Shown: piece by piece, positions 1 to 63,329 of the stretch
How positions within the stretch are numbered: position 1 is the stretch's first letter
Layout: the number at the start of each line of letters is the position of its first letter
IMG/VR virus record: IMGVR_UViG_3300037521_000345
Coordinates: 35,004 to 99,003 of that record
DNA length: 64,000 bases
Source of the DNA: a virus
Direction: 5' to 3' (one strand)
Notes under the pieces: generated by a model
What the model was told of the DNA's origin: nothing
What the model saw: only the letters and a program-made list of their open reading frames with translations
The model's database searches: none
Made by a program: the position numbers and the translations under genes

Positions 1-1245
1 ATTATTGCTGATACAAGTGGTAAATTGCTCGAACCTATTAAAGGATCATTTTCAGAAGGGTTAACAAATATAGAATATTTTAATGCAGCAGGTGGTGCTA
101 GAAAAGGAATGGCAGATCGAGCTTTGAATACTGCTACAACTGGATATTTTACAAGACAACTTGTCTATGTATTATCTCCAGTAGAAGCACATCCTACACT
201 AAAAGATTGTAAAACAAAACGAACTATTCAAATAAGATTAAATAATGATCTTATTAAAAGGATGTCAGGTCGATATATTATTAAAAGTGGTAAAATAGTT
301 TTATTTAAAAAATCAGATTATAAACCAGGGGATGTTGTTAACTTAAGAACATCTATTTATTGTGAGTCTTATAAATTATGTCATACCTGTTATGGGGATT
401 TATTGAAACGTCATAAATCTCCTTATGTTGGAGTTCTAGCAGGAGCATCAATTGGAGAACGTGGAACTCAATTAATTATGAGAACATTTCATACTGGTGG
501 TGCTGCTAGTATAGTTATTCGTGATGTTTTAGCAGATATTATTGATAATGATCCAATGATTGAAGTAGGTAAAACAAAGTTAGGCGAATATTTACAACAG
601 GAAGATGATAAATTAATAGCTAAAAAAGAATGTAATATAAAAATTGATCTGTCAACATATGAAGTAGAAAAATCTTATTTAATTGAAGAAGATAATGTTT
701 GGTTTAATCACCTTGTTTCGCAAGTAGAATTTAATGATATAATTTTTAATATGGCACTTGATTATCCAGTTCATTTATTAAAACAGAATTTTAAAAAGGT
801 AGGAAAAGAATCACTAATATTTAAGTATTCAATTGGAGATACGATATTAGAAATTCCTTTACAAACAACAGAGATTAAAGAGCAGGTGAATTATGTTAAT
901 AGATTAATTGGAGGTCGAGTAGTTTATAAGGATCCTTCTCATTTGTTAACAAAAGTTATGAAAGTGTATGGCGGAAGTATATCTGATTTAGACTTATGCT
1001 ATTTTGAAGTCCTATGTTCACAAGTTTTAAGAGATAGAAAGAATCAAGTATTACCTGCAAGACTTGGAAAGACTTGGGATCCTGTAATGATGAACATTAA
1101 AAGCACAGTTTTTAGTACAAGTTTTATTCAGAGTTTAGCATTTGAAAACATCAATAAAGCTATTGAAACTGGATTGATTTCTAAACAAGATGTGCCTGCA
1201 ACAATATTAGAGAAATTAGTGACAGGAGAGGATTTAAGGAAATAA
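1..1245 (+). CDS. rpoC: Multisubunit RNA polymerase beta'-like subunit, C-terminal part (5'-truncated by the window), RNAP locus 1
   Basis: Bridge helix GARKGMADRALNTATTGYFTRQLV, Zn site CESYKLCHTCYG, trigger loop GERGTQLIMRTFHTGG, C-terminal SFIQSLAFEN; frame open from position 1. Confidence 0.93.
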   Translation: MIADTSGKLLEPIKGSFSEGLTNIEYFNAAGGARKGMADRALNTATTGYFTRQLVYVLSPVEAHPTLKDCKTKRTIQIRLNNDLIKRMSGRYIIKSGKIVLFKKSDYKPGDVVNLRTSIYCESYKLCHTCYGDLLKRHKSPYVGVLAGASIGERGTQLIMRTFHTGGAASIVIRDVLADIIDNDPMIEVGKTKLGEYLQQEDDKLIAKKECNIKIDLSTYEVEKSYLIEEDNVWFNHLVSQVEFNDIIFNMALDYPVHLLKQNFKKVGKESLIFKYSIGDTILEIPLQTTEIKEQVNYVNRLIGGRVVYKDPSHLLTKVMKVYGGSISDLDLCYFEVLCSQVLRDRKNQVLPARLGKTWDPVMMNIKSTVFSTSFIQSLAFENINKAIETGLISKQDVPATILEKLVTGEDLRK

Positions 1246-1277
1246 CAGTCTGTGGAAGTATTTGGAGATAAACTCAT

Positions 1278-4200
1278 ATGATTAAATTTCAATCTTTAGT
1301 TCAATATTCAAGAGTAGTTGATGGAGTTCGTTTCTTTTCAGATAAGGATAGACCGTTCGTATTATTTTATTTCTCCGAGAATTCAACTCTATATGAAGAT
1401 TATCCTAAAATGAATTTAAGAAGAATAGATGCAAGATATATAGTTGTTCCAATAACCCAGATACCTGTCTCTAGATTAACGGGCGATCAAAGAAAAGTTT
1501 ATAAATCTTTTGGTTTACTTCCATTTCAATCAAATCAAGTATATCCCTTAAATGCAAATATTATATTCGATACCAGTAAATATGTTTCCTTGATAGATAA
1601 GATGTATAAACCAACAACATATAGACAAAGAGCAGGTTTTCTTCTAAATAATTTTCTTTATAAATCATTTAATTCGTTTCCTGATAACTATGAAAAAGTT
1701 CTAATTTATACTGTTGATGTTAATAAACCAATCAATTCGTTTATAAATCGAAAGATTTTTCCTATATTAAGAACTATGAAAGGAGATGAAATTTCATTTG
1801 ATCATATGCTTATGGCATTGATTGGAGAGTCGTCAACTAGATATAGACTATTAGTTAAAGACAGAAACTATAAATTTGCAAGAGTTTCTCAATATATAAG
1901 AAAAGTTAAAATGATTAGTTCAGATGATGAGAAAGAACAAGAAGTTAAAACAGCAACGAACTCATTTGATGAGAAAGATTCTAAAGTTAAAACAGCAATT
2001 CAAAACTATTTAAATAAAAATGCTAAAGATCTTGAGAAAGTTTCTAATAATGAACTTGATAAAACAGAAAGAGATAGATTAACAATAGCTTCTATCTTAT
2101 ATAAATTAACAGGAGATTTTCAAAAGTCTCAAAGACTTGCAAAAGCTATTCCTAAAAAAAGTATTAAAACTGCAACTGAAAAGATAAGTCGTTTATATAA
2201 AGATGACTTATTAACAGGTGAAAAAGCTGTTAGTCTTAGTGAATCATATATTGTTCAGGGAATAAATGTTTCCAGGGTAGTTCAAAATAAAACACCAGAG
2301 CATATATTTGACAAAAGAAGAATTGACTTTCAAACAAATTTAAAAAAGGATATGTCAAATGCTTTTAAAGTTTTAGAAAAAGGAAACGTTCCTATTAAAT
2401 TTAATTCATTTAAAATTACTCATAAAAAAGGAAGAGCTGGAGAACTTAAAAAATCAGATGTTTCAATTATAACTGTAAGTATAACAGATGCAGCAGGAAA
2501 GAATCAAACATTTGAGTTTGAAATTCCACAGATTGATCCTGACTCTGGAACATTTAGAGTTAATGGTCAGCGCAAATGTTTAATTAATCAAATAGTGTTG
2601 ACTCCAATAAGTTTTCCTAAACCTTATGATTCCAAATTTGAGAGTTCATATGCAAGATTCCATATCTATAGTAAGAAGACAAAGAGATTGTCGTATCTAG
2701 AAGCATACATGGGTTCCTTCCGCCTACCCTTGATGATACTGTTATCATATTGTTTTGGATTTGAAAAAACAGTTAAAAAATTAGGATTACAATATGAAAT
2801 TGTAAAAGATAAACCTAATAAGGATGTAGTCTTTACAGAAGTTCCTTCTTCATATATGGTATTTAAAAATTTAGATACTGATTTAAAAAAGGAAATGGTA
2901 ACATCATTCACGCACGCTAAAATTAATCAATACAACATTAAAAAAGATTTTTTATCAAAAGATTATTTTGTAGAGTTGATTATACAAATGACTGGACGTG
3001 TCGATTCAACATATCTGATAAATAATAATATTGATTATATCGTTGATCCAGTTGCAAAACAAATTTTAGTTAATCAATTATTACCATATAAATTAGAAGA
3101 TATTATGCATTATATGGCAACTAAATCTGTTGATGGTTATGTTCAAGAAAGAAATGATATTAAATATCAAAGAATTAGAAATTCAGAAATTTTAGTTCAT
3201 TTAGCACAAAAACAATTTCTTAGTTCTTATACTGAATATAAAGAACAGTTTTTATCAGGAAATAAAGATGCTAAATTTAATTTTCCTCCAGGAGTTATAT
3301 TAAGTCAATTTACTAACTTAGAGATAGTTCAAAATATGGAGTATGCAAATCCAGTTGAAGAGATGGCAACAATTACAAAGATTTCTCCAGTTGGAAAAAC
3401 AGTTGGAGGTATTCCAGATAAGGAAGGATTAAATCTTCAAGCTCGAAATGTTCATAGATCATATTTTGGAAATATTGATCCGGTGGATACAGCAGAAGGT
3501 GGTAACATTGGGGTAACCCAACAGTTGACAGTGGACGCATATTTAACATCCTCCCGTGGATTGTTTGGAATTAAAGATTTAAAAAATGATGAAGGAGCTG
3601 GAATATTATCTACAACACTTTCAATGGTTCCATTTATTGAAAACAATGAAGGTGCAAGAATGATAATGGCAGGTAATCAAGGAAAACAAATGTTACCTTT
3701 AAAAAATCCAGAACCTCCTATAGTTCAAACAGGATATGAGTCATTACTTTCAAATGTTTTGTCTAATAATTTTATCAAGAGATCACCTTGTGCTGGAAAA
3801 GTGACAAAAATTACTGGAGATTTTATTGAAATAGCTTGTAATAAAGGTTCTAAAAAGAAAGTTGTTATCACACCAGTTCAATTAAAATCAGGAGCTGGAA
3901 AAAATACATTGAGCACATTTAAACCATCTGTTGAGGTTGGACAATCAGTTAAAAATAAGCAAGTAATTGCAGAGGGAAGTTGTATTTCTGGCGGAACTAT
4001 TTCATTAGGAAGAAATCTTGCTACTTGTTATATGCCTTATCAAGGATATAATTTTGAAGATGGTCTTGTAATAAATGAACGATTAGTATCTGATGATAAA
4101 TTAACTTCTTTACATGGAATTGATGTTGAGGCAACAGTTGATCGTAAAGATAGAATTTTACATATTATTGATATTGGAGCTAAAACTAAAAAGGGTGACC

Positions 4201-5342
4201 CTCTAATAAGAAAGACAGCAGGTGAAATTGAAGAACTATTAGGATTTCAAGAAGAAGAGGAAGAAGGAGTTGATGTATATGAGGGTCAAATAATTACAAA
4301 AAGTCCAGGTGGTCATGTTGTTGATATTGACGTATTTTCTAATATTGATATAGATTCTTTTCCTTCCATTAAAAAGTTAGTTGAAAGAACTAATAAAAAA
4401 TATAAAAAACCTACTAAAGAAAAATTTACAACTAGAGGGGTTTCAATTAAAGGGATATTAATTATATTTAGAATTGAACAAGAGTTAAAAATTGGAGTGG
4501 GAGATAAACTCTGTAACCGATATGGAAATAAAGGTATTATATCTTTAGTTCAAAAAGATGAATTAATGCCAAGAACACCTTGGGGTGAAACAGTTGATAT
4601 TATTATGAATCCTCTTGGAGTTACTGGTCGAATGAATATAGGTCAAATATATGAATTGTATTGTGGTCTTATCTCTAAAGAAGTAGCAAATAGAATGGTT
4701 AAATTGAGCAAAGCTCAAGGCATTGCATTGATGAAAGCTGTAATAACAAGACTTGATAATACAAAAAATAAAAAAATTAGTACATCATTGATTGCTACAA
4801 TGACTGCAATGAGCGATGTAAAATATAAAAAGATGTTAGAGCAAATTCAAAAAGATAAGTTTATACCAATAGTTATTCCTCCATTTCAATCTCCTAAACA
4901 TAAAAGTATTTTAGAAGTATTAAAATTATTAAAATTAAAAACAGGATATAAATTAAAACTTCCAGAGTATAATACAAAAACTCAAAATGCGGTTCCATTT
5001 GGATATGAATATGTTTCTAAATTAGAACATATTTCAGATGCTAAATTACATGCTAGATCAACTGGTCCAACAACTGGAAAAGTTGGTCAACCAACTGCTG
5101 GTAAAAGAAAAGAGGGTGGGCAAAGAATAGGAGAAGGAGATACATGGGCATTAACAAGTTATAATTGTCCTACAATATTATCTGAACTCTTTGGACCTAT
5201 GTCTGATGACTTTGTATCTAAAAATGAAATGATGTCAGAAATTATACAAAATGGAAGAACAGATTTTAAAGAAACAAAAATGTCTCCAACTAGAGATTTA
5301 TTAAAAGCATATTTTATTTCTTTAATGCTAGGAGGTCAATAA
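1278..5342 (+). CDS. rpoB: RNA polymerase beta-like subunit with ~400-aa N-terminal extension, RNAP locus 1
   Basis: Motifs FRVNG, DPVDTAEGGNIG, GYNFEDG, GDKLCNRYGNKG, MNPLGVTGRMN, KLEH, GGQRIGEGD. Confidence 0.95.
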   Translation: MIKFQSLVQYSRVVDGVRFFSDKDRPFVLFYFSENSTLYEDYPKMNLRRIDARYIVVPITQIPVSRLTGDQRKVYKSFGLLPFQSNQVYPLNANIIFDTSKYVSLIDKMYKPTTYRQRAGFLLNNFLYKSFNSFPDNYEKVLIYTVDVNKPINSFINRKIFPILRTMKGDEISFDHMLMALIGESSTRYRLLVKDRNYKFARVSQYIRKVKMISSDDEKEQEVKTATNSFDEKDSKVKTAIQNYLNKNAKDLEKVSNNELDKTERDRLTIASILYKLTGDFQKSQRLAKAIPKKSIKTATEKISRLYKDDLLTGEKAVSLSESYIVQGINVSRVVQNKTPEHIFDKRRIDFQTNLKKDMSNAFKVLEKGNVPIKFNSFKITHKKGRAGELKKSDVSIITVSITDAAGKNQTFEFEIPQIDPDSGTFRVNGQRKCLINQIVLTPISFPKPYDSKFESSYARFHIYSKKTKRLSYLEAYMGSFRLPLMILLSYCFGFEKTVKKLGLQYEIVKDKPNKDVVFTEVPSSYMVFKNLDTDLKKEMVTSFTHAKINQYNIKKDFLSKDYFVELIIQMTGRVDSTYLINNNIDYIVDPVAKQILVNQLLPYKLEDIMHYMATKSVDGYVQERNDIKYQRIRNSEILVHLAQKQFLSSYTEYKEQFLSGNKDAKFNFPPGVILSQFTNLEIVQNMEYANPVEEMATITKISPVGKTVGGIPDKEGLNLQARNVHRSYFGNIDPVDTAEGGNIGVTQQLTVDAYLTSSRGLFGIKDLKNDEGAGILSTTLSMVPFIENNEGARMIMAGNQGKQMLPLKNPEPPIVQTGYESLLSNVLSNNFIKRSPCAGKVTKITGDFIEIACNKGSKKKVVITPVQLKSGAGKNTLSTFKPSVEVGQSVKNKQVIAEGSCISGGTISLGRNLATCYMPYQGYNFEDGLVINERLVSDDKLTSLHGIDVEATVDRKDRILHIIDIGAKTKKGDPLIRKTAGEIEELLGFQEEEEEGVDVYEGQIITKSPGGHVVDIDVFSNIDIDSFPSIKKLVERTNKKYKKPTKEKFTTRGVSIKGILIIFRIEQELKIGVGDKLCNRYGNKGIISLVQKDELMPRTPWGETVDIIMNPLGVTGRMNIGQIYELYCGLISKEVANRMVKLSKAQGIALMKAVITRLDNTKNKKISTSLIATMTAMSDVKYKKMLEQIQKDKFIPIVIPPFQSPKHKSILEVLKLLKLKTGYKLKLPEYNTKTQNAVPFGYEYVSKLEHISDAKLHARSTGPTTGKVGQPTAGKRKEGGQRIGEGDTWALTSYNCPTILSELFGPMSDDFVSKNEMMSEIIQNGRTDFKETKMSPTRDLLKAYFISLMLGGQ

Positions 5343-5938
5343 TGAGTGGGTTAGAAGCTTTATGCGGTGATTTAATCATTCCACCTGAAATGGATAACTA
5401 TGAAGAAGATGTTGATAAATATCATGATCTCGCCAGTTTCAGGTATGCTGCTCTTGATATAATAAATGTAGTTGGAAAAATTGACTTTAAAGAACTATAT
5501 ATTGTTCAAATGGATACTATTAAAAAACAAACAATGTATGTACAGAGAGTATTTCTTATTGAAATGCTACAAAAGATAAGTGAAATTTATGATTGGGAAT
5601 TTCCTGATGAATGGAGTTTAGTTGATACTTCATATCAACAAGAACAATTATATAAGTTTATAGAATTTATTGAATTTGATAATTATAGATTTTTATCCTA
5701 CGTTTGGAGATTTTTATTAGATGATACTACTAAACTTATAAGATTCGATATTGATAATTTTTGTAAAAAAAATGTTATGAAGATAATTAAAGAGACAGAA
5801 GAACAGTTAGAAACTCATTTTCAAAGCAAGATGATTACTATTTTTCTTAGAACATATTACAAAGAGAAGTTCATTGAATGGTTTAGTTTAATGAGTAGGA
5901 GATATAAAGTAGAAATAATTTCTGAACTTTATGAATAA
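5342..5938 (+). CDS. Hypothetical protein, translationally coupled to beta
   Basis: 198-aa ORF, TAATG stop/start overlap. Confidence 0.7.
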   Translation: MSGLEALCGDLIIPPEMDNYEEDVDKYHDLASFRYAALDIINVVGKIDFKELYIVQMDTIKKQTMYVQRVFLIEMLQKISEIYDWEFPDEWSLVDTSYQQEQLYKFIEFIEFDNYRFLSYVWRFLLDDTTKLIRFDIDNFCKKNVMKIIKETEEQLETHFQSKMITIFLRTYYKEKFIEWFSLMSRRYKVEIISELYE

Positions 5939-5950
5939 AAGGAGAAAAGA

Positions 5951-6208
5951 ATGGGAGAAGCAACAATTACAATTAAAAAGGGAGTGGTTGTCTTAAAAGC
6001 TCCAAAATCTGAATTAATCGAAGTATCTGAAACTCATGACGGTATAGCTTTTAACTTCAAACGTGGACTACAATTGTATCAAGTTGAACAATATATGCCA
6101 TCACATATTAAACAACTTATTAAGAATACAACTGATTCATTTGAAGGAAATAATATCATTATAGATTTAGATGATGCAAAGAAACCAATTATGGTTGACG
6201 CTACTTAA
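5951..6208 (+). CDS. Hypothetical protein
   Basis: 85-aa ORF with AAGGAG RBS. Confidence 0.7.
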   Translation: MGEATITIKKGVVVLKAPKSELIEVSETHDGIAFNFKRGLQLYQVEQYMPSHIKQLIKNTTDSFEGNNIIIDLDDAKKPIMVDAT

Positions 6209-6225
6209 TTCATTTTAAAAAATAC

Positions 6226-6247
6226 ATCTATATATATTAATAACTGA
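6226..6247 (+). promoter_or_regulatory. Putative phage (early-type) promoter motif ATCTATATATATTAATAAnTGA
   Basis: Identical 18-mer recurs at 63308-63325; both copies are intergenic and lie at the head of + strand transcription units. Confidence 0.55.
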
Positions 6248-6274
6248 TAAAGAGAAAATTGTTTAGTTTTTAAG

Positions 6275-6381
6275 TTCTAAGAAGACTTTATGTGATTCCA
6301 GAGCTGTGTTGGTACAGCATCATACTATAAATGTGAAGTCAGGGTTCGAGTCCCTCATATTACATTTCTTACTTCTTAGAA
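6275..6381 (+). ncRNA. Structured RNA unit 1 (Y-RNA-like/tRNA mimic)
   Basis: 10-bp terminal stem TTCTAAGAAG/CTTCTTAGAA and inner stem ATGTGAT/ATTACAT enclose a D-like arm GCTGT-GTTGGT-ACAGC, an anticodon-like arm TCATA-CTATAAA-TGTGA and a T arm AGGG-TTCGAGT-CCCT. Confidence 0.75.
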
Positions 6382-6394
6382 TTTTTATTTTTTA

Positions 6395-6500
6395 TCTGGA
6401 AAGACTTTATGTGATTTCCGAGCTGTGTTGGTACAGCATCTTACTATTAATAAGAAGCAAGGGTTCAACTCCCTGTAACTTACATCTGCTACTTTCCAGA
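6395..6500 (+). ncRNA. Structured RNA unit 2 (Y-RNA-like/tRNA mimic)
   Basis: Terminal stem TCTGGAAAG/CTTTCCAGA (compensatory changes relative to unit 1); same D-like arm; anticodon-like arm TCTTA-CTATTAA-TAAGA; T arm AGGG-TTCAACT-CCCT. Confidence 0.75.
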
Positions 6501-6511
6501 CCTATCAAAAT

Positions 6512-6577
6512 TTTCTAAGAAGACTTTGTGTAATTCCAGATCGATGCATCCAAATTACACCTATTACTTCTTAGAAA
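6512..6577 (+). ncRNA. Structured RNA unit 3 (short form)
   Basis: Stems TTTCTAAGAAG/CTTCTTAGAAA and GTGTAATT/AATTACAC; shares the GACTT...TCCAGA...TACTT motifs. Confidence 0.7.
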
Positions 6578-6587
6578 CACAACTTTC

Positions 6588-6687
6588 AGATGAGAAGACT
6601 ATATGTGGTTTCAGAATACAGAAGCAAGTGTTTAATACACACTTAGTCCTTGTAATACCTTTGTCCTACATAAACTACTTCTCATCT
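6588..6687 (+). ncRNA. Structured RNA unit 4
   Basis: Stems AGATGAGAAG/CTTCTCATCT and TATGTGG/CTACATA; internal hairpin AAGTGT-TTAATAC-ACACTT with a 7-nt loop. Confidence 0.7.
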
Positions 6688-6694
6688 CATTTTT

Positions 6695-6759
6695 CCTGAA
6701 AGACTTTTTGTAATTTCAGATTTATTGGAAAATCATCAATTACAATTACTACTTTCAGG
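6695..6759 (+). ncRNA. Structured RNA unit 5 (short form)
   Basis: Stems CCTGAAAG/CTTTCAGG and TTGTAATT/AATTACAA with the same conserved flanking motifs. Confidence 0.7.
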
Positions 6760-6767
6760 TTTTACTT

Positions 6768-6834
6768 TGTGGGGTCACTCAGTATAGAAAAAAACCTATT
6801 CGGGGTTCTAAACCTATACTAATAGTACCCCACA
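6768..6834 (+). ncRNA. Divergent hairpin unit within the array
   Basis: Nested stems TGTGGGGT/ACCCCACA and AGTATAG/CTATACT; same architecture as the other units but lacks the shared sequence motif. Confidence 0.45.
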
Positions 6835-6842
6835 TCTTTTCT

Positions 6843-6901
6843 AAATGGACTTAATGTGATTTCAGACCTGCATAGTGTTAAGATTACATTTACTTCCATT
6901 T
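6843..6901 (+). ncRNA. Structured RNA unit 6 (short form)
   Basis: Stems AAATGGA/TCCATTT and AATGTGAT/ATTACATT; motif GACTTAATGTGATTTCAGA...TACTT. Confidence 0.65.
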
Positions 6902-6998
6902 TTTTGAAAGGAAATTGATGAAAGATTCTTTTATTCTAAAACATTGGTTATAATTGCTTTACGTCGTCAGAAACATTTAAAGGGAAAGGAGATCTAAA

Positions 6999-8510
6999 GT
7001 GCCAGGAGAGTTAGGATTAATTGATTCAGGTATATTGCAGTTTGCTCCAAAGGGAGCTTATTATGAAGGAAAAGATGAGCAATATAATGCCATCAATAGC
7101 ATGTGGGAAAGTCTATTTAAATATGATAGAACTTTATTTTCTTTGCTAATGTTGTTAAATGGAACAGGTTTTGCAAAGGGATCAATGTCTCACATCTTAT
7201 TATCGAATCCATTAGAGGAATCCAAACTTCCAGTATTAGATAACCTACCTTCCCATTTTGAGAAGGATATTATAAACTATGCTCTTTATAAGGAGAGAAC
7301 TCCAAGAGCATTGAAAAATTTATTAATGTTAACAGGAGCAGAAGGGCACAGTAAAGTTAATAATTCTAGAACAAGAAAAATGATTTTAGAATTTATATTC
7401 AATCGAGATAATAATAATCTTGATAATCTTGCTGTGAATTATAAAGGCAAACTTCAAACGCTGATTACACATGCTCTTGGAAAACAAGATCTAGCAAAAA
7501 TTCTTGGTGGTGACAAAAAATCATTTGAAAAATTCATTGGAAAATATAATAGACATTCTTTTCCTGTAGTTCTTCATATATTCAATATGGATATTCCAAC
7601 TGTGGGAGCTTACTTTCCAATGATTGAAAAATATTATAAACTTCGAAACGCAGCACAAGAGAAAAATATTACAGAATTTAAAAAATTAATGAAGGGCATG
7701 CCAGAAAGAACAGTCATGGGTATGAGGAATTTATATAAAGTTAACATTCCTATATCTGAATTAAAAGATGAAACTACCAAATCACAAAAGGATAGAATTC
7801 AAGGACAGGCAGCAGCTAAAAGAGCTGGAACAAAGATAGATATTGATTATAAAAAACAAGATATCTATGACTTATTTAAATTTCTATATTTTAAAATCAA
7901 AAACAATGATGGTGAGGATTTTAATAAAATATTATATGCCATTGATCACGTTGCAGGCAAACTTCCTAAAATAGATATTGGAGAATGTGTAGTAGTTATG
8001 GATGCTTCACATTCAATGATGGGAAGTGATGAAAGACCAATGCATCCATTTCTAACTGGACTATCTATTACTGCAACTCTCAAAAATATAAGAGAGTATA
8101 TATATGTTGGAGGAGAAACAGCTAAAATGGAAGGTAATGATTTTCCAGAAATTGTAGTTCCTTGCAATAGTACAGATTTATGGAGAGGATTGATCAAAGC
8201 TGTTAAAACAGGTGTTGAAAATATAGTTATCATTTCAGATGGTTATGAAAACACCATCAAAGGAATGTTCAAACACGTATATGATCACTTAAAAAAGAAT
8301 GGATATAAGTTCAAAGTAACTCATATCAATCCTGTATTTTCAGCTTCATCTGTTAATGGTTCAACAAGAAAATTAGCAGATGATATTAAATCTATGCCAG
8401 TAGGAAACTATAAGTATTTAGAAACAGAAGTTATTTTTTCTAGACTTGTAGAGGATAAGGAAATGGTTAAAAAAATATTAATCTCAAAATATAGAAATTT
8501 ACTTCAATAA
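6999..8510 (+). CDS. Divergent Ro60/TROVE-like helical domain plus C-terminal vWA domain protein
   Basis: vWA MIDAS motif VVMDASHSM, later T and IISDGYEN; helical basic N-terminal region (VNNSRTRK..AVNYKGKL..HALG); ~500-aa size typical of Ro60/Rsr; GTG start with AAGGAG RBS. Confidence 0.6.
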   Translation: MPGELGLIDSGILQFAPKGAYYEGKDEQYNAINSMWESLFKYDRTLFSLLMLLNGTGFAKGSMSHILLSNPLEESKLPVLDNLPSHFEKDIINYALYKERTPRALKNLLMLTGAEGHSKVNNSRTRKMILEFIFNRDNNNLDNLAVNYKGKLQTLITHALGKQDLAKILGGDKKSFEKFIGKYNRHSFPVVLHIFNMDIPTVGAYFPMIEKYYKLRNAAQEKNITEFKKLMKGMPERTVMGMRNLYKVNIPISELKDETTKSQKDRIQGQAAAKRAGTKIDIDYKKQDIYDLFKFLYFKIKNNDGEDFNKILYAIDHVAGKLPKIDIGECVVVMDASHSMMGSDERPMHPFLTGLSITATLKNIREYIYVGGETAKMEGNDFPEIVVPCNSTDLWRGLIKAVKTGVENIVIISDGYENTIKGMFKHVYDHLKKNGYKFKVTHINPVFSASSVNGSTRKLADDIKSMPVGNYKYLETEVIFSRLVEDKEMVKKILISKYRNLLQ

Positions 8511-8527
8511 AGGGAGGATCCAAAAAT

Positions 8528-9499
8528 ATGTCAATATTGAAAACATTAGGATTTACAAATCTTAATGCTGGAACCGTTCAAGTTGTGGATGAAATGACAG
8601 TAGTGCCCTTAATTAGTGAAGATTTAGGACAAGTTGCTGAACCATTTTCATTGAAATTCAGACGAACAAACACTTATGGTTCCATGATTTATGAGAATTT
8701 AGATAAGGAATCTCCTGCGATCATTCCCAATAATATTATGGTGAGAGGATTGAGTGCACAGGATCACGCAATGGCAGGATCAGGAGTGGTTAAAGCTGAA
8801 AAATCAAAAACATTCAATAATGCTTGCTGTATTGAATCAAGTCAAGGTGGATATCTAGGTGAAGAAAATAATGAATATGATATCTTGCCTGTTCAGCTTC
8901 GTAAGAAACTTATTCCATTAGATATAAGAAATAAAAAAAGTTATGATAAATTATGGCCAGAAATTACAGCATGGTTGAAAGGTACTATTGATGTATCTCC
9001 TCGTTTCTCAAGTGCCCATCTAAGATATTTCTATGATGATCCTGAAATAAAGAAATCTCTTGAAACATTCTCCGCTGAATTTGAACCTGTATTAAATCAA
9101 ATCGGTGCTATTATATTATTTACAGATAACATTGTTGGTATAGAAGTTATGCCAACTCTTTCACATTGGTATTATTACTGGAAATTATTAATTCGTGGAT
9201 GTTATGGAGCTGAATTATTAAGACGTAAAAAATTAAATATAATTAAACCAGCTAAATTGAAACTTCCAAAACTTCCAAAAGATATTGATCAGATATCTTT
9301 AGTTGGCGATACTTATACAGATGGTATTCGTCAAAACATTATTAAAAAATTAGACACTATTAATTTGAAAACAACTTCAACTATTATAGAAAAAGTTGAA
9401 GATATTAATATTATATTATTAAACAGTGAATCAGGTGGTAGCGGTGGAGATTTGATTACTCAAAAAGATAAACCAATATATCTTTCTATAGTGATGTAA
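8528..9499 (+). CDS. ARPP-1/DUF6569-like protein
   Basis: Pattern QDHAM..., ACCIESSQGG, FEPVLNQIGAI, VGIEVMP resembles the ARPP-1 family found next to this vWA family. Confidence 0.5.
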   Translation: MSILKTLGFTNLNAGTVQVVDEMTVVPLISEDLGQVAEPFSLKFRRTNTYGSMIYENLDKESPAIIPNNIMVRGLSAQDHAMAGSGVVKAEKSKTFNNACCIESSQGGYLGEENNEYDILPVQLRKKLIPLDIRNKKSYDKLWPEITAWLKGTIDVSPRFSSAHLRYFYDDPEIKKSLETFSAEFEPVLNQIGAIILFTDNIVGIEVMPTLSHWYYYWKLLIRGCYGAELLRRKKLNIIKPAKLKLPKLPKDIDQISLVGDTYTDGIRQNIIKKLDTINLKTTSTIIEKVEDINIILLNSESGGSGGDLITQKDKPIYLSIVM

Positions 9500-11908: not shown

Positions 11909-13129
11909 ATGCCAAGTCAAAATACCCCAGTACAAGAACAAAAATATTATGAAAAACTAAATATTTCGGTCCTCTCTATTAGTCGAATTAAAGAATTACT
12001 TAAAGATGATATTAAATCAACTCTGATTTGTTGGCAACAAGGAAGAGATGTTGATAGACAATGCTATCGAATTATTGGACCAGCAGGTGTTGGAAAGACT
12101 CAAATATGCTATCAAATAGTTGAAGAACTATCAGAAGAAGTGGGTATTCCATTTCAACTTATTATGATAAAAGCTCCCGTTCTATCAAGGGATGATTTTA
12201 TAATTCCATTTCCTGTTATTAATAATGGAAATGAAAAATTCAAAATGTTGTATTCAGACTTCGTTCCAGAAGGTGATGATACATATGGTTTGTTTGTCAT
12301 AGATGAGTGTGGTCGTGGCGATCATGCATTACAACAATTATTATGGCAAGTTCAAAATGAATATTCAATTCATAGATATGACTTTCCAAAACATTGGTTT
12401 GTTATATCAATTGATAATCCAGATGACTCTGAATATTCAATGGATATTATTGAGGATGCTGCAGGTCTTCGTCGAAATCTTCACGTTTATACAGAAGTAA
12501 GTGCTAAAGATTTTCTTGACTATGCTATTAAAAAAGATTTTCATCCATTTGTCATTGAGTATATTCAGACACATCCAGAAAGAGTTTATGATTGGCAATC
12601 CCAAAAGGTTGGTGCAGTTTATGCTAATCCTGCAAGTTGGGAAAAGATTTCAGATCATCTCTGGAAAATGGAAATAGCACATGGAAAAATAGATTTTGAT
12701 AAGTTTGAACCTAAAGCTTCTGGTTTAATTAACACTAATCAAACTCGATTATTTTTAGAATTTGCAAGAGATAAACGAGATATTAATCCAAAAGATATTT
12801 TCTATAATTTTAATAAAGTAGAAAAACAGATAAAGAATCTTATTAAAAATAACGATAATTCTAAACTTGGTGAACTAATGACAAGTTTTGGAACCTTTAT
12901 GGTTACCACAATGCCTTCCTATCAAAGTGATAATCTAAAAAATGTTATTGAATTTCTATTATTAATGCCTGTTGATACAGCAGCATTGTTTATGTCTCAA
13001 ATAGATCAATATGAAAGATCATCAAAATCATTTCAATACATGACAAAACTCCACGTAATATTGACTCAAAAATCACATAAATACAAAAGAGAATTCTATG
13101 ATCCACTGGTTGGACTTGGACTAGAATAA
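11909..13129 (+). CDS. MoxR-like AAA+ ATPase
   Basis: Walker A GPAGVGKT, Walker B FVIDE, adjacent vWA partner gene. Confidence 0.8.
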   Translation: MPSQNTPVQEQKYYEKLNISVLSISRIKELLKDDIKSTLICWQQGRDVDRQCYRIIGPAGVGKTQICYQIVEELSEEVGIPFQLIMIKAPVLSRDDFIIPFPVINNGNEKFKMLYSDFVPEGDDTYGLFVIDECGRGDHALQQLLWQVQNEYSIHRYDFPKHWFVISIDNPDDSEYSMDIIEDAAGLRRNLHVYTEVSAKDFLDYAIKKDFHPFVIEYIQTHPERVYDWQSQKVGAVYANPASWEKISDHLWKMEIAHGKIDFDKFEPKASGLINTNQTRLFLEFARDKRDINPKDIFYNFNKVEKQIKNLIKNNDNSKLGELMTSFGTFMVTTMPSYQSDNLKNVIEFLLLMPVDTAALFMSQIDQYERSSKSFQYMTKLHVILTQKSHKYKREFYDPLVGLGLE

Positions 13130-13150
13130 AACTAATATAAAGGAGTCAGT

Positions 13151-14431
13151 ATGCCAGGTGAACAAACACACCAACGATTTAAAGAGTTATTTGCAAAATT
13201 TGTTCTCAAGTATAATTACTGGGGGTATTTGTTTTCCAGAATAAGAAGAAAACCATCTGAAAATATTCCATCCATTATGGGAGTAGCTCCTGAAATGGAT
13301 GGAACTATAACTTTATGGTATCATCCTAAGTTAGTTGATGGAACAGATGAAAAGAATCTCACAAAAATTCTTGAGCACGAAGGTATGCATTTATTAAATA
13401 AACATATAGCAAGATTAATAAGAATTATTGCAGATGAAACAGATATAACTAAATTACATATTAAAATAGATTTATGGAATCTAGCAGCTGATGCTGCCTC
13501 TAATCACCAAGCACAATTTGAAGATGATCTTATTGTAGATGGAGAACCTTGGCCACTTATATTTCCAGCAAGTATAGGACTTCCAGAAAATAAAACTGCT
13601 GAATTTTACTATTATGAGTTATTAAAAAAGAATAAAGACGACATGGAAAAATTTGCAAAGGAAATGAAAAAGATATTTAAAATATTAGATAGTCATTCAG
13701 AATGGTCAAAAGGTTTATCAAAAGCTGGTGATCCAAGCACTTTATCAAGAAAGATAGATAGTTTTATTACAGATATTATAAGAGAATCTGTTAAAAGTTT
13801 TTCAAGAGATAAAGGAAATTTGCCAGCACATATACGTGAGTTAGTTGAGCAAGCATTAGGACCTCCAAAGGTTCCATATTATGCTCTTATTAAAAAACTT
13901 ATTAAAGGAAGCAGATTATCTAAATTCAAAAGGTCACATACAAAAGTTAATCGAAAGAGAGGTTATGTATTTGTAATTGGAACAAAGGATGGTATACCAG
14001 AAATCTCACCTTTTCCAGGAAGAACTAGAGACTTTACATTCAAAATAGGTATCGTGATTGATACATCAGGAAGTATGACAATAGAATGGATTGCAGAAGG
14101 TCTCTCTGGAGTCAAAAATATATTAGAAAAAGATAGACACTGTCATGTTACAGTGATGCAAGTTGATACAGTAGTTGAAAGTGAGTATCAACCCAAGAAA
14201 ATTAGAGATATTAGATTTGAAGCAAAAGGAAGAGGTGGAACAGAATTATATCCTGGTTTGAAAAGATGTAGAGAATTAGAAGTTGATGTCTGCCTAGTAT
14301 TTACAGATGGACATTGTGAAAATATAAATACAATACCTCGAAAGTTATTACCAAAAAAAATCATTTGGGTTATAACTCCAAGTGGAAGTCCAGATAAAAT
14401 TAATAAAACTGGATATGTAATAAGAATTTAA
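13151..14431 (+). CDS. Metallopeptidase-like (HExxH) plus vWA domain protein (DUF2201-like), partner of the MoxR ATPase
   Basis: HEGMH, DTSGSM, GRGGT, VFTDG. Confidence 0.8.
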   Translation: MPGEQTHQRFKELFAKFVLKYNYWGYLFSRIRRKPSENIPSIMGVAPEMDGTITLWYHPKLVDGTDEKNLTKILEHEGMHLLNKHIARLIRIIADETDITKLHIKIDLWNLAADAASNHQAQFEDDLIVDGEPWPLIFPASIGLPENKTAEFYYYELLKKNKDDMEKFAKEMKKIFKILDSHSEWSKGLSKAGDPSTLSRKIDSFITDIIRESVKSFSRDKGNLPAHIRELVEQALGPPKVPYYALIKKLIKGSRLSKFKRSHTKVNRKRGYVFVIGTKDGIPEISPFPGRTRDFTFKIGIVIDTSGSMTIEWIAEGLSGVKNILEKDRHCHVTVMQVDTVVESEYQPKKIRDIRFEAKGRGGTELYPGLKRCRELEVDVCLVFTDGHCENINTIPRKLLPKKIIWVITPSGSPDKINKTGYVIRI

Positions 14432-35761: not shown

Positions 35762-35942
35762 AGAATTTATAAATCAACATGAATCACAAATTACAAAAAA
35801 AGATGCACAAATTATCATTAAATCTTTAATGCCATTTATTGATGAAATGGTATCAGAAAAAGTAAAATATCATTTTAAATTATTAGCAAATCATTTACTA
35901 GATACATTAAAATCTACAGAGGAGAAATTAAAAGATGCCTAG
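35718..35942 (+). CDS. Small hypothetical protein
   Basis: ATG at 35718 with GGGAG RBS. Confidence 0.55.
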   Translation: MEKHPLDEYIQLKIEEFINQHESQITKKDAQIIIKSLMPFIDEMVSEKVKYHFKLLANHLLDTLKSTEEKLKDA

Positions 35943-38619: not shown

Positions 38620-38837
38620 AAGAACTAGAGCAAGAATTGCTTGACCGTTATGCAGACTACAGAGATCCAGATTCTAACTGGATAAAAACAAATCTACCAG
38701 ATGAGTTAAATGATACTGGAGCAAAAGATTTTATAATAAAACCTCATGATGCAAAATCAGTTAGTCAGGTTAATTCATTTACAATATATTATGAGGTTAA
38801 AGGAAAAAGAATTGTTAAATTTGTAAGGAGAATATAA
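38616..38837 (+). CDS. Small hypothetical protein, paralog A
   Basis: MKELEQEL..NW.K..I.P.DAKS pattern shared with the next gene. Confidence 0.6.
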   Translation: MKELEQELLDRYADYRDPDSNWIKTNLPDELNDTGAKDFIIKPHDAKSVSQVNSFTIYYEVKGKRIVKFVRRI

Positions 38838-39064
38838 TGAAAGAATTAAATAATCAAGAATTAAGAGATGAAATAATTGAACTTTTCCTTAGTGATTCAA
38901 TAGATAATTGGACCAAAAGTCCATCAGTTTATGATCTATCTAATTGTGGTCAATTAGATATTGAAATAGAACCAGACGATGCAAAAAGTATTGATGAAAT
39001 AAAACAGTTTAAAATAATAGAAACTGTAATGGGATCAGAAACACTAGAATTTACAAGGAAATAA
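38837..39064 (+). CDS. Small hypothetical protein, paralog B
   Basis: MKELNNQEL..NW.K..IEPDDAKS. Confidence 0.6.
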   Translation: MKELNNQELRDEIIELFLSDSIDNWTKSPSVYDLSNCGQLDIEIEPDDAKSIDEIKQFKIIETVMGSETLEFTRK

Positions 39065-39066
39065 TA

Positions 39067-39246
39067 ATGAGAGATCCGAATAGAATACATGAGATGTTAA
39101 GAGTAATATCGAAGGTCTGGTATAAACATCCAGACCTTCGATTAGGTCAATTAATATTAAATGCAGTTACAATTAATCCAAATCTGTATTATATGGAAGA
39201 TGAACAGCTATTAGAATATTTAAAAAAGACTTATAAGGAGGAGTAG
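39067..39246 (+). CDS. Small conserved phage protein (59 aa; not in ORF track)
   Basis: MRDPNRI...W.KHPDLRLGQL pattern. Confidence 0.65.
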   Translation: MRDPNRIHEMLRVISKVWYKHPDLRLGQLILNAVTINPNLYYMEDEQLLEYLKKTYKEE

Positions 39247-39249
39247 AAT

Positions 39250-42640: not shown

Positions 42641-42798
42641 TTAGAGATGATGCTTGGAAAGGATCAGGTTTTGATGATTCAGAATTATTATTTGAATGTT
42701 CAAATGATAGAGAACATGAATTACATCGTTCTAAAAATGATGAATGGGAAAATACTATTAGAGAAGAGTTTTATAGAGGAGCATATTATGCCGACTAA
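42544..42798 (+). CDS. Small Zn-ribbon protein
   Basis: YCPICKG...FECSNDREH; GGAG RBS. Confidence 0.6.
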   Translation: MLETKYCPICKGEIILRYHIPDKNFKISKGKMIRDDAWKGSGFDDSELLFECSNDREHELHRSKNDEWENTIREEFYRGAYYAD

Positions 42799-63307: not shown

Positions 63308-63329
63308 ATCTATATATATTAATAATTGA
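63308..63329 (+). promoter_or_regulatory. Putative early-type promoter, second copy
   Basis: ATCTATATATATTAATAATTGA, matches 6226-6247. Confidence 0.55.

What the first reader, a model, noticed from the sequence alone, without database searches (positions are those of the whole stretch)
6303..6474. tRNA-like cargo with A34 versions of the queuosine-family anticodon loops (Tyr and Asn)
Seen in sequence: units 1 and 2 contain D, anticodon and T arms in canonical tRNA order (GG in the D loop, UUCGAGU or UUCAACU T loops) but no 7-bp acceptor stem and no CCA; the array scaffold stem replaces the acceptor. The 7-nt loops are CU-AUA-AA (6325-6331) and CU-AUU-AA (6444-6450). Established knowledge: typical bacterial tRNA-Tyr and tRNA-Asn loops are CU-GUA-AA and CU-GUU-AA. 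These GUN tRNAs receive queuosine at G34 and are targets of anticodon nucleases such as colicin E5. As I recall, YrlA is circularly permuted and lacks an anticodon arm, so this topology would differ. Inference: these are G34A, non-aminoacylatable mimics that could decoy or inhibit anticodon nucleases, TGT or uncharged-tRNA sensors.
Basis: partly seen in the sequence, partly recalled or inferred. Interest (0 to 1): 0.85.

Follow-up and report, generated by a model that had tools for sequence, protein, structure and literature searches.

The report
tRNA mimics in phage Y-RNA array
Two small RNA genes of an uncultured marine-sediment jumbo phage carry tRNA look-alikes that cannot be charged with an amino acid. 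They belong to a seven-member RNA array placed directly before a very diverged Ro60-type RNA-binding protein, so they look like a new branch of the known Ro60/Y-RNA particles and not like odd tRNAs.

Summary
Units 1 and 2 (6274-6382, 6393-6502) each contain D, anticodon and T arms in tRNA order. They score at Rfam's tRNA threshold, get no ARAGORN call, lack an acceptor stem and CCA, and have the loops CUAUAAA and CUAUUAA.

They are two of six hairpins sharing a covarying "handle" (GACU internal loop, inner stem, invariant UUUCAG). In the 99-kb record the handle occurs only here, upstream of a 503-aa protein. That protein's predicted ring domain matches Ro60 (Z 13.9 to Xenopus Ro; next unrelated fold 6.3) and it ends in a vWA domain with a MIDAS motif. 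An ARPP-1 gene follows.

The same module was found at every one of the 65 related loci examined. Across 87 tRNA-like modules, the stems, U33, R37 and A38 are conserved. The anticodon triplet takes 25 forms and changes as fast as unconstrained positions, so "Tyr/Asn A34" is probably not a conserved identity. AUN outnumbers GUN 16:2, which is suggestive but weak.

A related 248-kb phage keeps its ordinary tRNAs (Asn GUU, Asp GUC, His GUG) elsewhere, without handles.

Best reading: tRNA-mimic effector modules of a new kind of Y RNA. The decoy function is untested. This scan has reported the same system on other DNA.

The parts
6226..6242 (+). Promoter-like phage motif ATCTATATATATTAATA ahead of the array
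   Evidence: There are two exact copies in the window. The other (63308) precedes a protein gene with an RBS. The same motif precedes the arrays in L009, L011, L016 and L017. Its function as a promoter is inferred.
6274..6382 (+). Array unit 1: scaffold hairpin carrying a tRNA-like module
   Evidence: Scaffold model R1 scores 45.1 bits, E 4e-10, although this unit was not in the training set. Outer stem UUCUAAGAAG / CUUCUUAGAA.
6303..6355 (+). tRNA-like domain of unit 1: D arm 6303-6318, anticodon arm 6320-6336 with loop CUAUAAA at 6325-6331, T arm 6341-6355
   Evidence: Rfam tRNA 29.0 bits over model positions 9-63. Covarying stems in homologues.
6393..6502 (+). Array unit 2: scaffold hairpin carrying a tRNA-like module
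   Evidence: R1 scores 39.2 bits, E 1e-8. The minimum-free-energy fold shows the scaffold plus D, anticodon and T hairpins.
6422..6474 (+). tRNA-like domain of unit 2: D arm 6422-6437, anticodon arm 6439-6455 with loop CUAUUAA at 6444-6450, T arm 6460-6474
   Evidence: Rfam tRNA 29.9 bits. Its 74-nt core is 86% identical to that of unit 1.
6512..6577 (+). Array unit 3: scaffold with a short apical loop
   Evidence: R1 scores 57.4 bits. Fold z-score -5.9.
6587..6688 (+). Array unit 4: scaffold with a non-tRNA cargo that keeps a degenerate T-arm-like hairpin
   Evidence: R1 scores 51.0 bits. Bases 6620-6635 are 88% identical to the pre-T-arm stretch of unit 2.
6692..6762 (+). Array unit 5: scaffold with a small AUUGGA-loop hairpin (D-arm-like)
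   Evidence: R1 scores 71.5 bits. Similar cargo is present in L016, L017, L045 and L096.
6766..6836 (+). Divergent hairpin without the GACU / UUUCAG handle
   Evidence: R1 scores only 13.6 bits. Fold z-score -4.6. Its AUUCGGGGUUC loop recurs in L014 and L016.
6838..6906 (+). Array unit 7: scaffold followed by a U run, the likely end of the RNA transcript
   Evidence: R1 scores 50.4 bits. A U7 run follows the stem. The terminator role is inferred; the consensus scan did not call it.
6999..8510 (+). 503-aa Ro60-like protein: TROVE-like helical ring plus a vWA domain with a MIDAS DxSxS motif
   Evidence: - Whole model: the top 11 Foldseek hits shown are all Ro60/TROVE.
- N-domain alone against 48,161 chains: Ro60 takes ranks 1-3 (Z 13.9, 11.7, 9.0); the next hit is Z 6.3.
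- D335, S337 and S339 are invariant in 36 relatives.
- Language-model neighbours include viral TROVE clusters.
- There is no Pfam TROVE hit.
8528..9499 (+). ARPP-1 domain protein, always next to the Ro60-like gene
   Evidence: Pfam PF20208, E 2e-16. A 322-aa ORF follows the Ro60-like gene in L012 and L013. A natural fusion of the Ro60-like protein with ARPP-1 exists in P0258.
5951..6208 (+). Conserved 85-aa ORF just upstream of the array (function unknown; may not belong to the system)
   Evidence: Present upstream of the arrays in L009, L011, L016 and L017. No family hit.

Best explanation
Units 1 and 2 are the tRNA-mimic "effector modules" of two members of a tandem array of Y-RNA-like non-coding RNAs. 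These RNAs serve a very diverged phage Ro60 (TROVE + vWA) protein encoded immediately downstream, which is coupled to an ARPP-1 protein.

Each RNA pairs its 5' and 3' ends into a shared handle: an outer stem, a conserved GACU-containing internal loop, a 7-8-bp inner stem and an invariant UUUCAG. I infer that this handle is the docking site for the Ro60-like ring.

The handle carries a swappable insert at its tip. In units 1 and 2 the insert is a D arm, a complete anticodon arm and a T arm that can form the tRNA elbow. The handle's inner stem stands in for the acceptor stem. There is no CCA, so the RNA cannot be aminoacylated.

As with YrlA/Yrn1 in bacteria, the tRNA-shaped module would let the particle engage proteins that recognise tRNA shape. 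It could tether them to Ro60 and whatever nuclease or repair enzyme Ro60 recruits, or it could titrate them.

Shown here: the RNA structures, their conservation, their exclusive linkage to the Ro60-like gene, and the fold of the protein. Inferred: transcription, binding of the handle by the protein, and the partner of the tRNA-like module.

The particular triplets AUA and AUU are probably incidental states of a position that drifts freely.
For: 1. tRNA-like domains are present and structurally constrained.
2. The handle is a real RNA structure. In 28 units, 14 of 15 pairs show compensatory changes and 94% of cells are paired, against 68% in shuffles and 37-50% when the partners are slid.
3. 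A covariance model of the handle finds all six units, including 1, 2 and 4, which were not used to build it. It finds nothing else in the 99-kb record. In a related 248-kb phage it hits only the array beside the Ro60-like gene.
4. The downstream protein is Ro60-like.
   - The N-domain aligns to Xenopus Ro60 at Z 13.9, rmsd 3.6 A, over 267 residues. D. radiodurans Rsr gives Z 11.7 and phage phiLo Ro60 Z 9.0. The next unrelated fold is Z 6.3 over 59 residues.
   - The full-length model has Ro60 as every one of its top 11 Foldseek hits shown.
   - The vWA MIDAS residues are invariant.
   - Viral TROVE clusters are among its nearest language-model neighbours.
5. The array sits directly upstream of this gene in every one of 65 non-redundant related loci examined.
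6. Precedent: Y RNAs are encoded next to Ro60 in more than 250 bacteria and phages and contain tRNA-like domains (PMC4201824). Thermus phage phiLo has two Y-like RNAs upstream of its Ro60 (PMC12135203).
7. These are not the phage's working tRNAs. The 248-kb relative has a separate cluster of 29 canonical tRNAs (Asn GUU x2, Asp GUC, His GUG, Cys GCA and others) plus a tmRNA, with no handles.
Against: - No Pfam TROVE hit at E <= 10 in the genome, nor in 61 distant family members. Kinship to Ro60 therefore rests on fold, architecture and language-model features.
- The known Ro60-binding motifs (GGUCCGA; GNCGAAN0-1G; CGAA) are absent from the window's handles and rare in homologues: 3 of 178 units.
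- Rfam YrlA and Y_RNA models give no hit even at E <= 10.
- No transcript data, so expression and processing are unknown.
- Some homologous modules have a 7-bp acceptor stem plus an encoded NCCA, so part of the family could be processed into tRNA-like molecules.
Confidence: 0.68

Rival explanations
1. Anticodon-directed decoys. The modules are bait or inhibitors for host enzymes that read the anticodon loop: colicin-E5-like or other anticodon nucleases, or TGT. Selection against G34-U35 keeps them uncleavable or unmodifiable.
For: - The loop frame needed for a canonical anticodon loop is kept: U33 in 84/87 modules, purine 37 in 86/87, A38 in 71/87.
- AUN outnumbers GUN 16:2, although G34 is common before A or C. 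Fisher 4e-5 raw, 0.009 clustered.
- All four queuosine-family anticodons occur as A34 versions (AUA, AUU, AUC, AUG).
- The phage's own canonical tRNAs in a relative keep GUU, GUC and GUG.
- Ro60 operons in bacteria are tied to tRNA damage (PMC7790460, listed but not read).
Against: - The triplet changes at the same rate as unconstrained positions, and 25 triplets occur, so no particular target is preserved.
- Composition alone predicts only about 5 GUN among 87 (composition). The depletion is not significant taken alone, and the association is driven partly by an excess of GAU.
- By my knowledge of colicin E5 specificity, an A34 loop should not bind an E5-type nuclease, so it would be resistant and not a decoy.
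- No anticodon nuclease or TGT gene was seen near the array.
Confidence: 0.15
2. Real decoding tRNAs. The units are precursors of working A34 tRNAs for the NAU codons that an AT-rich phage prefers, and the handle is only a processing or stabilising structure.
For: - In relatives, 23 modules have a 5-7-bp acceptor stem plus an encoded NCCA, and ARAGORN calls them tRNAs (Ile-AAU, His-AUG, Asp-AUC, Tyr-AUA and others).
- Rfam scores reach 69 bits.
Against: - The window's two units lack an acceptor stem and CCA.
- One conserved tRNA body carries many different anticodons, including UUA (which would read the UAA stop codon) in 10 modules, so identity and decoding would not match.
- Canonical tRNAs in the 248-kb relative have no handles.
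- The T stem is only 4 bp in this class (31 of 41 modules).
Confidence: 0.07
3. The handle serves another partner. The scaffold hairpins are bound or cut by something other than the Ro60-like protein (for example host RNase III, the ARPP-1 protein or the 85-aa protein), and the adjacency to the Ro60-like gene reflects co-expression only.
For: - No known Ro60-binding motif is present in the handle.
- Long stems with an internal loop resemble RNase III sites (my knowledge).
- The 85-aa ORF and ARPP-1 are equally conserved neighbours.
Against: - The linkage to the Ro60-like gene holds across relatives down to 41-44% protein identity.
- The architecture (paired termini, conserved internal loop, variable module) is that of Y RNAs.
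Confidence: 0.08
4. Decaying tRNA pseudogenes with no function.
For: Borderline tRNA scores, a missing acceptor stem, and anticodons that do not occur in normal bacterial tRNAs.
Against: Compensatory changes maintain all three stems, and the T loop, the GG of the D loop, U33 and R37 are conserved across 41-87 modules from many phages.
Confidence: 0.02

Closest known systems
YrlA-type Y RNAs of bacterial and phage Rsr/Ro60 (Chen et al. 2014, PMC4201824; crystal structure preprint 10.1101/312249)
   Same: - Small RNA genes, often several, encoded beside a Ro60 gene.
- The 5' and 3' ends pair into a protein-binding stem.
- The rest is a tRNA-like domain with D and T arms that lacks a free CCA end.
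   Different: - YrlA is permuted: T arm, closed acceptor stem-loop, D arm. Its Ro60-binding stem sits in place of the anticodon stem and it has no anticodon loop. Here the order is D, full anticodon arm, T, and the handle sits at the acceptor position.
- The GNCGAAN0-1G motif is absent.
- No Rfam YrlA hit.
- The array has 6-7 members sharing one handle.
Deinococcus radiodurans Yrn1 (Y RNA of the Ro60-PNPase RYPER complex)
   Same: According to PMC4201824, Yrn1 can be modelled with D-like features, an "anticodon arm" with a 5-bp stem, and a T arm. That orientation is opposite to YrlA, and is the topology seen here.
   Different: - Yrn1's loop has 6 nt, its D arm is doubtful, and it keeps the metazoan-type Ro-binding helix.
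- The window's units have clear D arms, 7-nt loops with U33/R37, and a different handle.
- I did not compare sequences directly.
Thermus phage phiLo Ro60 with Yrl1/Yrl2 (PMC12135203; PDB 9KOP, 9L5Y)
   Same: - A phage Ro60 with Y-like RNAs directly upstream of its gene.
- The phiLo protein is among the best structural matches of the window's protein.
   Different: - phiLo Ro60 is recognisable by sequence.
- Its two Yrls were picked by a CGAA motif in a large bulge.
- They are not described as a shared-handle array with anticodon-bearing tRNA mimics.
Canonical tRNA (Rfam RF00005)
   Same: - D arm with GG.
- 5-bp anticodon stem with a 7-nt loop (U33, R37).
- T loop UUCRANY.
- G53-C61.
- Rfam score at the threshold.
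   Different: - No acceptor stem and no CCA.
- 4-bp T stem.
- 3-4-nt variable region.
- A34-U35 anticodons that bacterial tRNAs do not use (my knowledge).
- Embedded in a long hairpin.
Dictyostelid Class I RNAs (PMC7919456)
   Same: Architecture only: a short stem joining the 5' and 3' ends, a conserved motif right after the 5' strand of the stem, and a variable remainder.
   Different: - Eukaryotic RNAs of 42-65 nt with no known Ro60 link.
- The motif sequence is not given in the text I could read, so likeness of the motifs was not tested.

Membership tests
tRNA (functional, chargeable) | 7-bp acceptor stem with a discriminator base and a CCA end (encoded or addable) | tested here: not met
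   ARAGORN makes no call. In the standard register 1-2 of 7 pairs form, and no CCA follows. Rfam aligns unit 1 only over model positions 9-63.
tRNA (functional, chargeable) | D, anticodon and T arms with the conserved loop residues | tested here: met
   Rfam tRNA 29.0 and 29.9 bits against a gathering score of 29. GG in the D loop, UUCRA in the T loop, U33 and A37. Stems covary in 41 homologues.
tRNA (functional, chargeable) | An anticodon from the repertoire used for decoding, stable among orthologues | tested here: not met
   The anticodons are AUA and AUU. There are 25 triplets among 87 homologous modules, changing as fast as unconstrained sites. The canonical tRNAs of a related phage use GUU, GUC and GUG.
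Y RNA (Ro60 partner RNA, broad sense) | Encoded next to a Ro60/TROVE gene | tested here: met
   The array ends 93 nt before a protein with a Ro60 fold. The same arrangement holds in 65 related loci.
Y RNA (Ro60 partner RNA, broad sense) | 5' and 3' ends pair into a stem with a conserved internal loop or bulge; the remainder is a variable module | tested here: met
   Alignment A3: two helices, 14 of 15 pairs covary, and GACU and UUUCAG are invariant.
Y RNA (Ro60 partner RNA, broad sense) | A known Ro60-binding sequence (GGUCCGA, GNCGAAN0-1G or CGAA) | tested here: not met
   None in 6272-6904. GNCGAAN0-1G occurs in 3 of 178 homologous units.
Y RNA (Ro60 partner RNA, broad sense) | Physically bound by Ro60 | not testable with these tools
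   Needs EMSA, co-purification or a structure.
YrlA (Rfam RF02553, accession as cited in earlier notes of this scan) | Permuted tRNA-like domain: T arm, closed acceptor stem-loop, D arm; no anticodon loop | tested here: not met
   The order here is D, anticodon arm, T. The only Rfam family with E <= 1 in 6200-6960 is tRNA. No YrlA or Y RNA family appears among the seven matches up to E 10, and the rest are chance-level miRNA, snoRNA, lncRNA and sRNA hits.
Ro60 / TROVE protein family (the neighbouring gene) | HEAT-repeat ring (TROVE) fold | tested here: met
   N-domain model (pLDDT 80) against 48,161 chains: 1yvp_A Z 13.9, rmsd 3.6, 267 residues aligned; 2nvo Z 11.7; 9l5y Z 9.0; next hit Z 6.3.
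Ro60 / TROVE protein family (the neighbouring gene) | C-terminal vWA domain with a MIDAS motif | tested here: met
   vWA matches at Z 10-11 with rmsd about 3 A. D335, S337 and S339 are invariant.
Ro60 / TROVE protein family (the neighbouring gene) | Sequence match to Pfam TROVE (PF05731) | tested here: not met
   No hit for the protein, in six frames of two phage genomes at E <= 10, or in 61 distant relatives. A PDB profile search gave nothing.

The most novel reading that the evidence does not exclude
The handle-mounted tRNA mimics are a fast-evolving panel of anticodon-loop baits displayed on a phage Ro60 particle. The canonical loop frame is kept, the triplet is free to change, and the U33-G34-U35 signature recognised by TGT and by colicin-E5-type anticodon nucleases is selected against. 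The particle would then capture, blunt or repair host attacks on tRNA anticodon loops. In some relatives the mimic has a closed acceptor hairpin with an NCCA loop, which could be opened to give a chargeable end.
Probability: 0.15. Interest if true: 0.85.

Novelty: new variant of a known kind. Interest (0 to 1): 0.55.

Why it matters
Ro60 and its Y RNAs are conserved from bacteria to humans, yet the purpose of the tRNA-like part of bacterial Y RNAs is still unknown.

This phage lineage has at least 439 protein clusters by profile search, none recognised by Pfam as TROVE. It offers a natural series of Y-like RNAs in which one handle displays many different inserts, including tRNA mimics with a complete anticodon arm. 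That makes two questions directly testable: which feature is bound by the Ro60-like ring, and which feature recruits a partner.

It also warns annotators that tRNA-like hits with impossible anticodons next to such genes are not decoding tRNAs. It extends the recognisable range of Ro60 systems in huge phages, together with an always-coupled ARPP-1 protein of unknown chemistry.

Tried and rejected
- **Public phage records.** blastn of 5300-8600 against GenBank phages found no match. tblastn of the protein hit only one unannotated 462-kb uncultured phage at 28% identity.
- **Locus searches.** The search for related loci with the single protein found nothing; alignments were needed.
- **Pattern scan of viral contigs.** L007 is a chance match in GC-rich DNA (read). 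L008 and L010 (short 8- and 11-kb contigs, one match each) were not read and were set aside. Only L009 and L011 were used.
- **Sequence searches for the protein's family.** phmmer and profile searches of the PDB gave nothing useful. NCBIfam and PHROGs gave nothing for the Ro60-like protein.
- **Fold searches.** Foldseek with the N-domain alone gave only generic helical repeats (E > 0.1). The exhaustive VIA search was needed to see Ro60.
- **Transcripts.** No RNA holder was listed among public runs. Only marine-sediment DNA runs hold the stretch.
- **Terminator and promoter scan.** The consensus scan did not call a terminator after unit 7 or a sigma-70 promoter at the conserved motif.
- **Queuosine link.** A FolE2 GTP cyclohydrolase lies at 42647-43672, but the neighbouring ORFs gave no QueC, QueD, QueE or TGT families. 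No link could be made.
- **Diversifying selection on the anticodon.** Rejected: the triplet's rate equals that of free loop positions.
- **Handle as a general pre-tRNA processing signal.** Rejected: canonical tRNAs of the 248-kb relative lack it.
- **Complex prediction.** Not used, because it scores protein-protein pairs only.
Full report
**Where the window comes from.** The window is part of a 99-kb IMG/VR virus record, estimated about 32% complete. It has 29% G+C and two sets of multisubunit RNA polymerase genes, so it is a jumbo phage. The stretch is held only by marine-sediment DNA runs.

**Check of the observation.** The sequence is as described.
- Unit 1 has a D arm at 6303-6318 (loop UGUUGGUA), an anticodon arm at 6320-6336 whose 7-nt loop CUAUAAA lies at 6325-6331, and a T arm at 6341-6355 (loop UUCGAGU).
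- Unit 2 has the same parts at 6422-6437, 6439-6455 (loop CUAUUAA at 6444-6450) and 6460-6474 (loop UUCAACU).
- Rfam's tRNA model scores them 29.0 and 29.9 bits, at its gathering score of 29. Unit 1 aligns only over model positions 9-63.
- ARAGORN calls nothing in the window or in the other 35 kb of the record.
- There is no CCA, and the standard acceptor register gives 1-2 of 7 pairs.
- The two units are paralogues, 86% identical over 74 nt.

**The array.**
- Six units share the 5' motif GACUWWWUGURRUUYCMGA. Six matches were found where 0.15 are expected by chance.
- Each unit folds into an outer stem, an internal loop, an inner stem and an apical cargo.
- A seventh hairpin (6766-6836) has a different sequence.
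- I aligned 28 short-cargo units from this and related phages (A3). GACU and UUUCAG are invariant. RNAalifold and my pair count show two helices in which 14 of 15 pairs have compensatory changes. Paired cells are 94%, against 68% in shuffles and 37-50% for slid partners. The covariation score is 0.79, against 0.27 for shuffles.
- A covariance model built from A3 (R1) recovers units 1, 2 and 4, which were not in the training set, at 39-51 bits. It finds nothing else in the 99-kb record.
- A conserved AT-rich motif (6226-6242) precedes the array here and in relatives. It occurs once more in the window, before a protein gene. Unit 7 is followed by a U run.
- I infer one transcription unit. This is not shown.

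**The neighbour.** The array ends 93 nt before a 503-aa ORF (6999-8510). This ORF has no Pfam, PHROG, NCBIfam or PDB sequence match.
- It belongs to a large unannotated family: 227 hits in one search, and 439 representative clusters by profile search.
- An AlphaFold model built from 36 relatives (pLDDT 81) has Ro60/TROVE structures as every one of its top 11 Foldseek matches shown, aligned over the whole length (VIA Z 10.3-13.3).
- Helical repeats can match loosely, so I modelled the N-terminal 325 residues alone (pLDDT 80).
  - Foldseek found only generic repeats.
  - The exhaustive aligner, run against 48,161 chains, put Xenopus Ro60 first (Z 13.9, rmsd 3.6 A, 267 residues), D. radiodurans Rsr second (Z 11.7) and Thermus phage phiLo Ro60 third (Z 9.0). 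The next, unrelated match had Z 6.3 over 59 residues.
- The C-terminal part is a vWA domain whose MIDAS residues D335, S337 and S339 are invariant.
- Language-model neighbours include several viral clusters annotated TROVE/vWA_Ro60.
- The Pfam TROVE model finds nothing in the genome even at E 10, nor in 61 distant relatives.
- I therefore call it a Ro60-like protein by fold and architecture, not by sequence.
- The next gene (8528-9499) has an ARPP-1 domain. It follows the Ro60-like gene in relatives, and one family member is a natural Ro60-like/ARPP-1 fusion (P0258). ARPP was predicted to act on ribose moieties in ADP-ribose-centred conflict systems (PMC9503650).

**Related loci.** Pattern and protein-guided scans gave 12 viral and 80 metagenomic loci. 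After removing duplicates and loci with too little upstream DNA, 65 remained.
- All 65 loci yielded at least one handle-bearing hairpin upstream of the Ro60-like gene (1-10 per locus by a permissive finder, median about 5).
- Rfam and ARAGORN find tRNA-like cargo in them, up to 69 bits.
- With a simple structural parser I collected 87 distinct tRNA-like modules. They fall into three kinds.
  - Compact ones like the window's: no acceptor stem, a 3-4-nt variable region and a 4-bp T stem.
  - Ones in which the T arm is followed by a 6-7-bp hairpin whose loop contains NCCA, that is, a closed acceptor stem (fold).
  - Ones with a 5-7-bp acceptor stem plus an encoded NCCA, which ARAGORN calls tRNAs (Ile-AAU, His-AUG, Asp-AUC, Tyr-AUA, Gln-UUG, "stop"-UUA and others).
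- In 41 modules of the first two kinds, all three stems covary.

**What the anticodon loops do in homologues.**
- The loop frame is conserved: U33 in 84/87, purine 37 in 86/87, A38 in 71/87.
- The triplet is not conserved. There are 25 different triplets, led by GAU (12), UUA (10), UGA (8), UGU (7), UAU (6) and AUC (6).
- One conserved module body carries a dozen different triplets.
- In closely related pairs the triplet differs at 0.43-0.52 per site. That is the same as unconstrained loop positions (0.38-0.42) and far above stems (0.01-0.17).
- The triplet therefore drifts freely. I see no evidence for diversifying selection and none for a preserved Tyr or Asn identity.
- A34 is not enriched overall: 22/87, against 32% A in the arrays.
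With U at position 35, position 34 is A in 16 modules and G in 2. Otherwise G (18) beats A (6). Fisher's test gives 4e-5 raw and 0.009 after clustering similar modules.
- All four queuosine-family anticodons occur in the A34 form.
- However, composition predicts only about 5 GUN, the lineages are not independent, and the excess of GAU contributes to the association. I rate this as a lead.

**Are they the phage's tRNAs?** No. A related 248-kb phage (79% complete) has a separate cluster of 29 canonical tRNAs and a tmRNA, with ordinary anticodons (Asn GUU twice, Asp GUC, His GUG, Cys GCA, Ile GAU, Arg ACG). None of them lies in a handle. The handle model hits only the array beside the Ro60-like gene, where the only A34 Ile-AAU call lies. 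This also rules out the handle as a general pre-tRNA processing signal.

**Comparison with what is known.**
- Y RNAs encoded beside Ro60, often with a tRNA-like domain, are known in more than 250 bacteria and phages (PMC4201824). Phage phiLo has two upstream of its Ro60 (PMC12135203). Jumbo phages with TROVE proteins have been noted (PMC7824862).
- YrlA differs in topology. It runs T arm, closed acceptor loop, D arm; its Ro-binding stem takes the place of the anticodon stem; and it has no anticodon loop.
- The D-anticodon-T order seen here is the one proposed for D. radiodurans Yrn1.
- The known Ro60-binding motifs are absent from the handle, and no Rfam Y RNA family matches.
- I therefore file the RNAs as working like Y RNAs but not as members of YrlA. 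The whole is a new variant of the Ro60/Y-RNA kind.
- Earlier notes and follow-up reports of this scan describe the same handle-plus-Ro60-like module on other DNA. They agree with my reading, and I tested its main points independently here.
- One of those notes likens the handle to dictyostelid Class I RNAs. I could confirm only the shared architecture, not the motif.

**Mechanism.**
- Shown: structured, conserved RNAs exclusively linked to a protein with a Ro60 fold; and tRNA-like modules that cannot be charged in the window.
- Inferred: the protein binds the handle, and the tRNA-shaped module recruits or titrates proteins that recognise tRNA. The anticodon arm points away from the handle as the distal tip of the L.
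- Which partner is unknown. Candidates are anticodon-loop enzymes, tRNA repair or processing enzymes, or a nuclease such as PNPase, as in the known complexes.

**Limits.** My module parser demands pairing, so percent-paired values are inflated. E-values from the home-made covariance model are rough.

Noticed in passing
L017:1920-2054; also L035, L036, L048, L020, L021, L042, L051, L062, L070, L080, L082, L086, L087: In many relatives the T arm is followed by a 6-7-bp hairpin whose loop contains NCCA. This is a closed acceptor stem lying 3' of the T arm, so the tRNA-like domain is a tRNA opened between positions 7 and 8. The permutation differs from YrlA's. RNase P cleavage could in principle free a CCA end.
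   Followed up: partly
Modules in L018, L034, L043, L047, L048, L051, L052, L059, L079, L080 (upstream of the Ro60-like gene): The commonest triplet in modules with a full acceptor stem and NCCA is UUA (8 of 23), which would pair with the UAA stop codon. The neighbouring genes read normally in code 11.
   Followed up: partly
L114-L116 (G002:C1, about 53-83 kb): The related 248-kb phage has a cluster of 29 canonical tRNA genes plus a tmRNA (tag ADDYYTEVALAA). It includes a CUA-anticodon tRNA that ARAGORN labels Pyl, which is a possible amber suppressor.
   Followed up: no
P0258 (884 aa, from the profile search): Natural fusion of the Ro60-like protein (residues 36-482) with an ARPP-1/ARPP-2 domain (562-831). 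This supports a functional coupling of the two neighbouring genes.
   Followed up: yes
window 6766-6836: The odd array member lacks the GACU / UUUCAG handle but folds well (z -4.6). Its AUUCGGGGUUC-type loop recurs in arrays of L014 and L016. It appears to be a second conserved RNA class inside the array.
   Followed up: partly
window 6692-6762 and homologues (L016:1667-1735, L045:754-829, L096:964-1028): The cargo of unit 5 is a small hairpin with an AUUGGA loop, like an isolated D arm. It is conserved across distant arrays.
   Followed up: no
window 63308-63324: Second exact copy of the promoter-like motif ATCTATATATATTAATA, here 60 nt before an RBS and the ATG of a small protein gene. It is a likely phage promoter consensus.
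   Followed up: partly
window 35935-42279 and 1-5342: Two separate sets of RNA polymerase beta'/beta-like genes lie in one 64-kb window (Pfam Rpb1/Rpb2 domains).
   Followed up: no
window 42647-43672: FolE2-type GTP cyclohydrolase I (E 1e-58). The adjacent ORFs gave no QueC, QueD, QueE or TGT hits, so a 7-deazaguanine pathway could not be shown.
   Followed up: partly
window 11909-14431: A 406-aa protein with weak P-loop matches is followed by a 426-aa DUF2201 protein (putative metallopeptidase plus VWA-like domain). This is a second vWA-type gene pair a few kb downstream of the Ro60-like operon.
   Followed up: no
window 5951-6208: An 85-aa ORF of unknown family is conserved immediately upstream of the array in all relatives inspected. 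It lies after the RNA polymerase beta gene and a 198-aa ORF.
   Followed up: no
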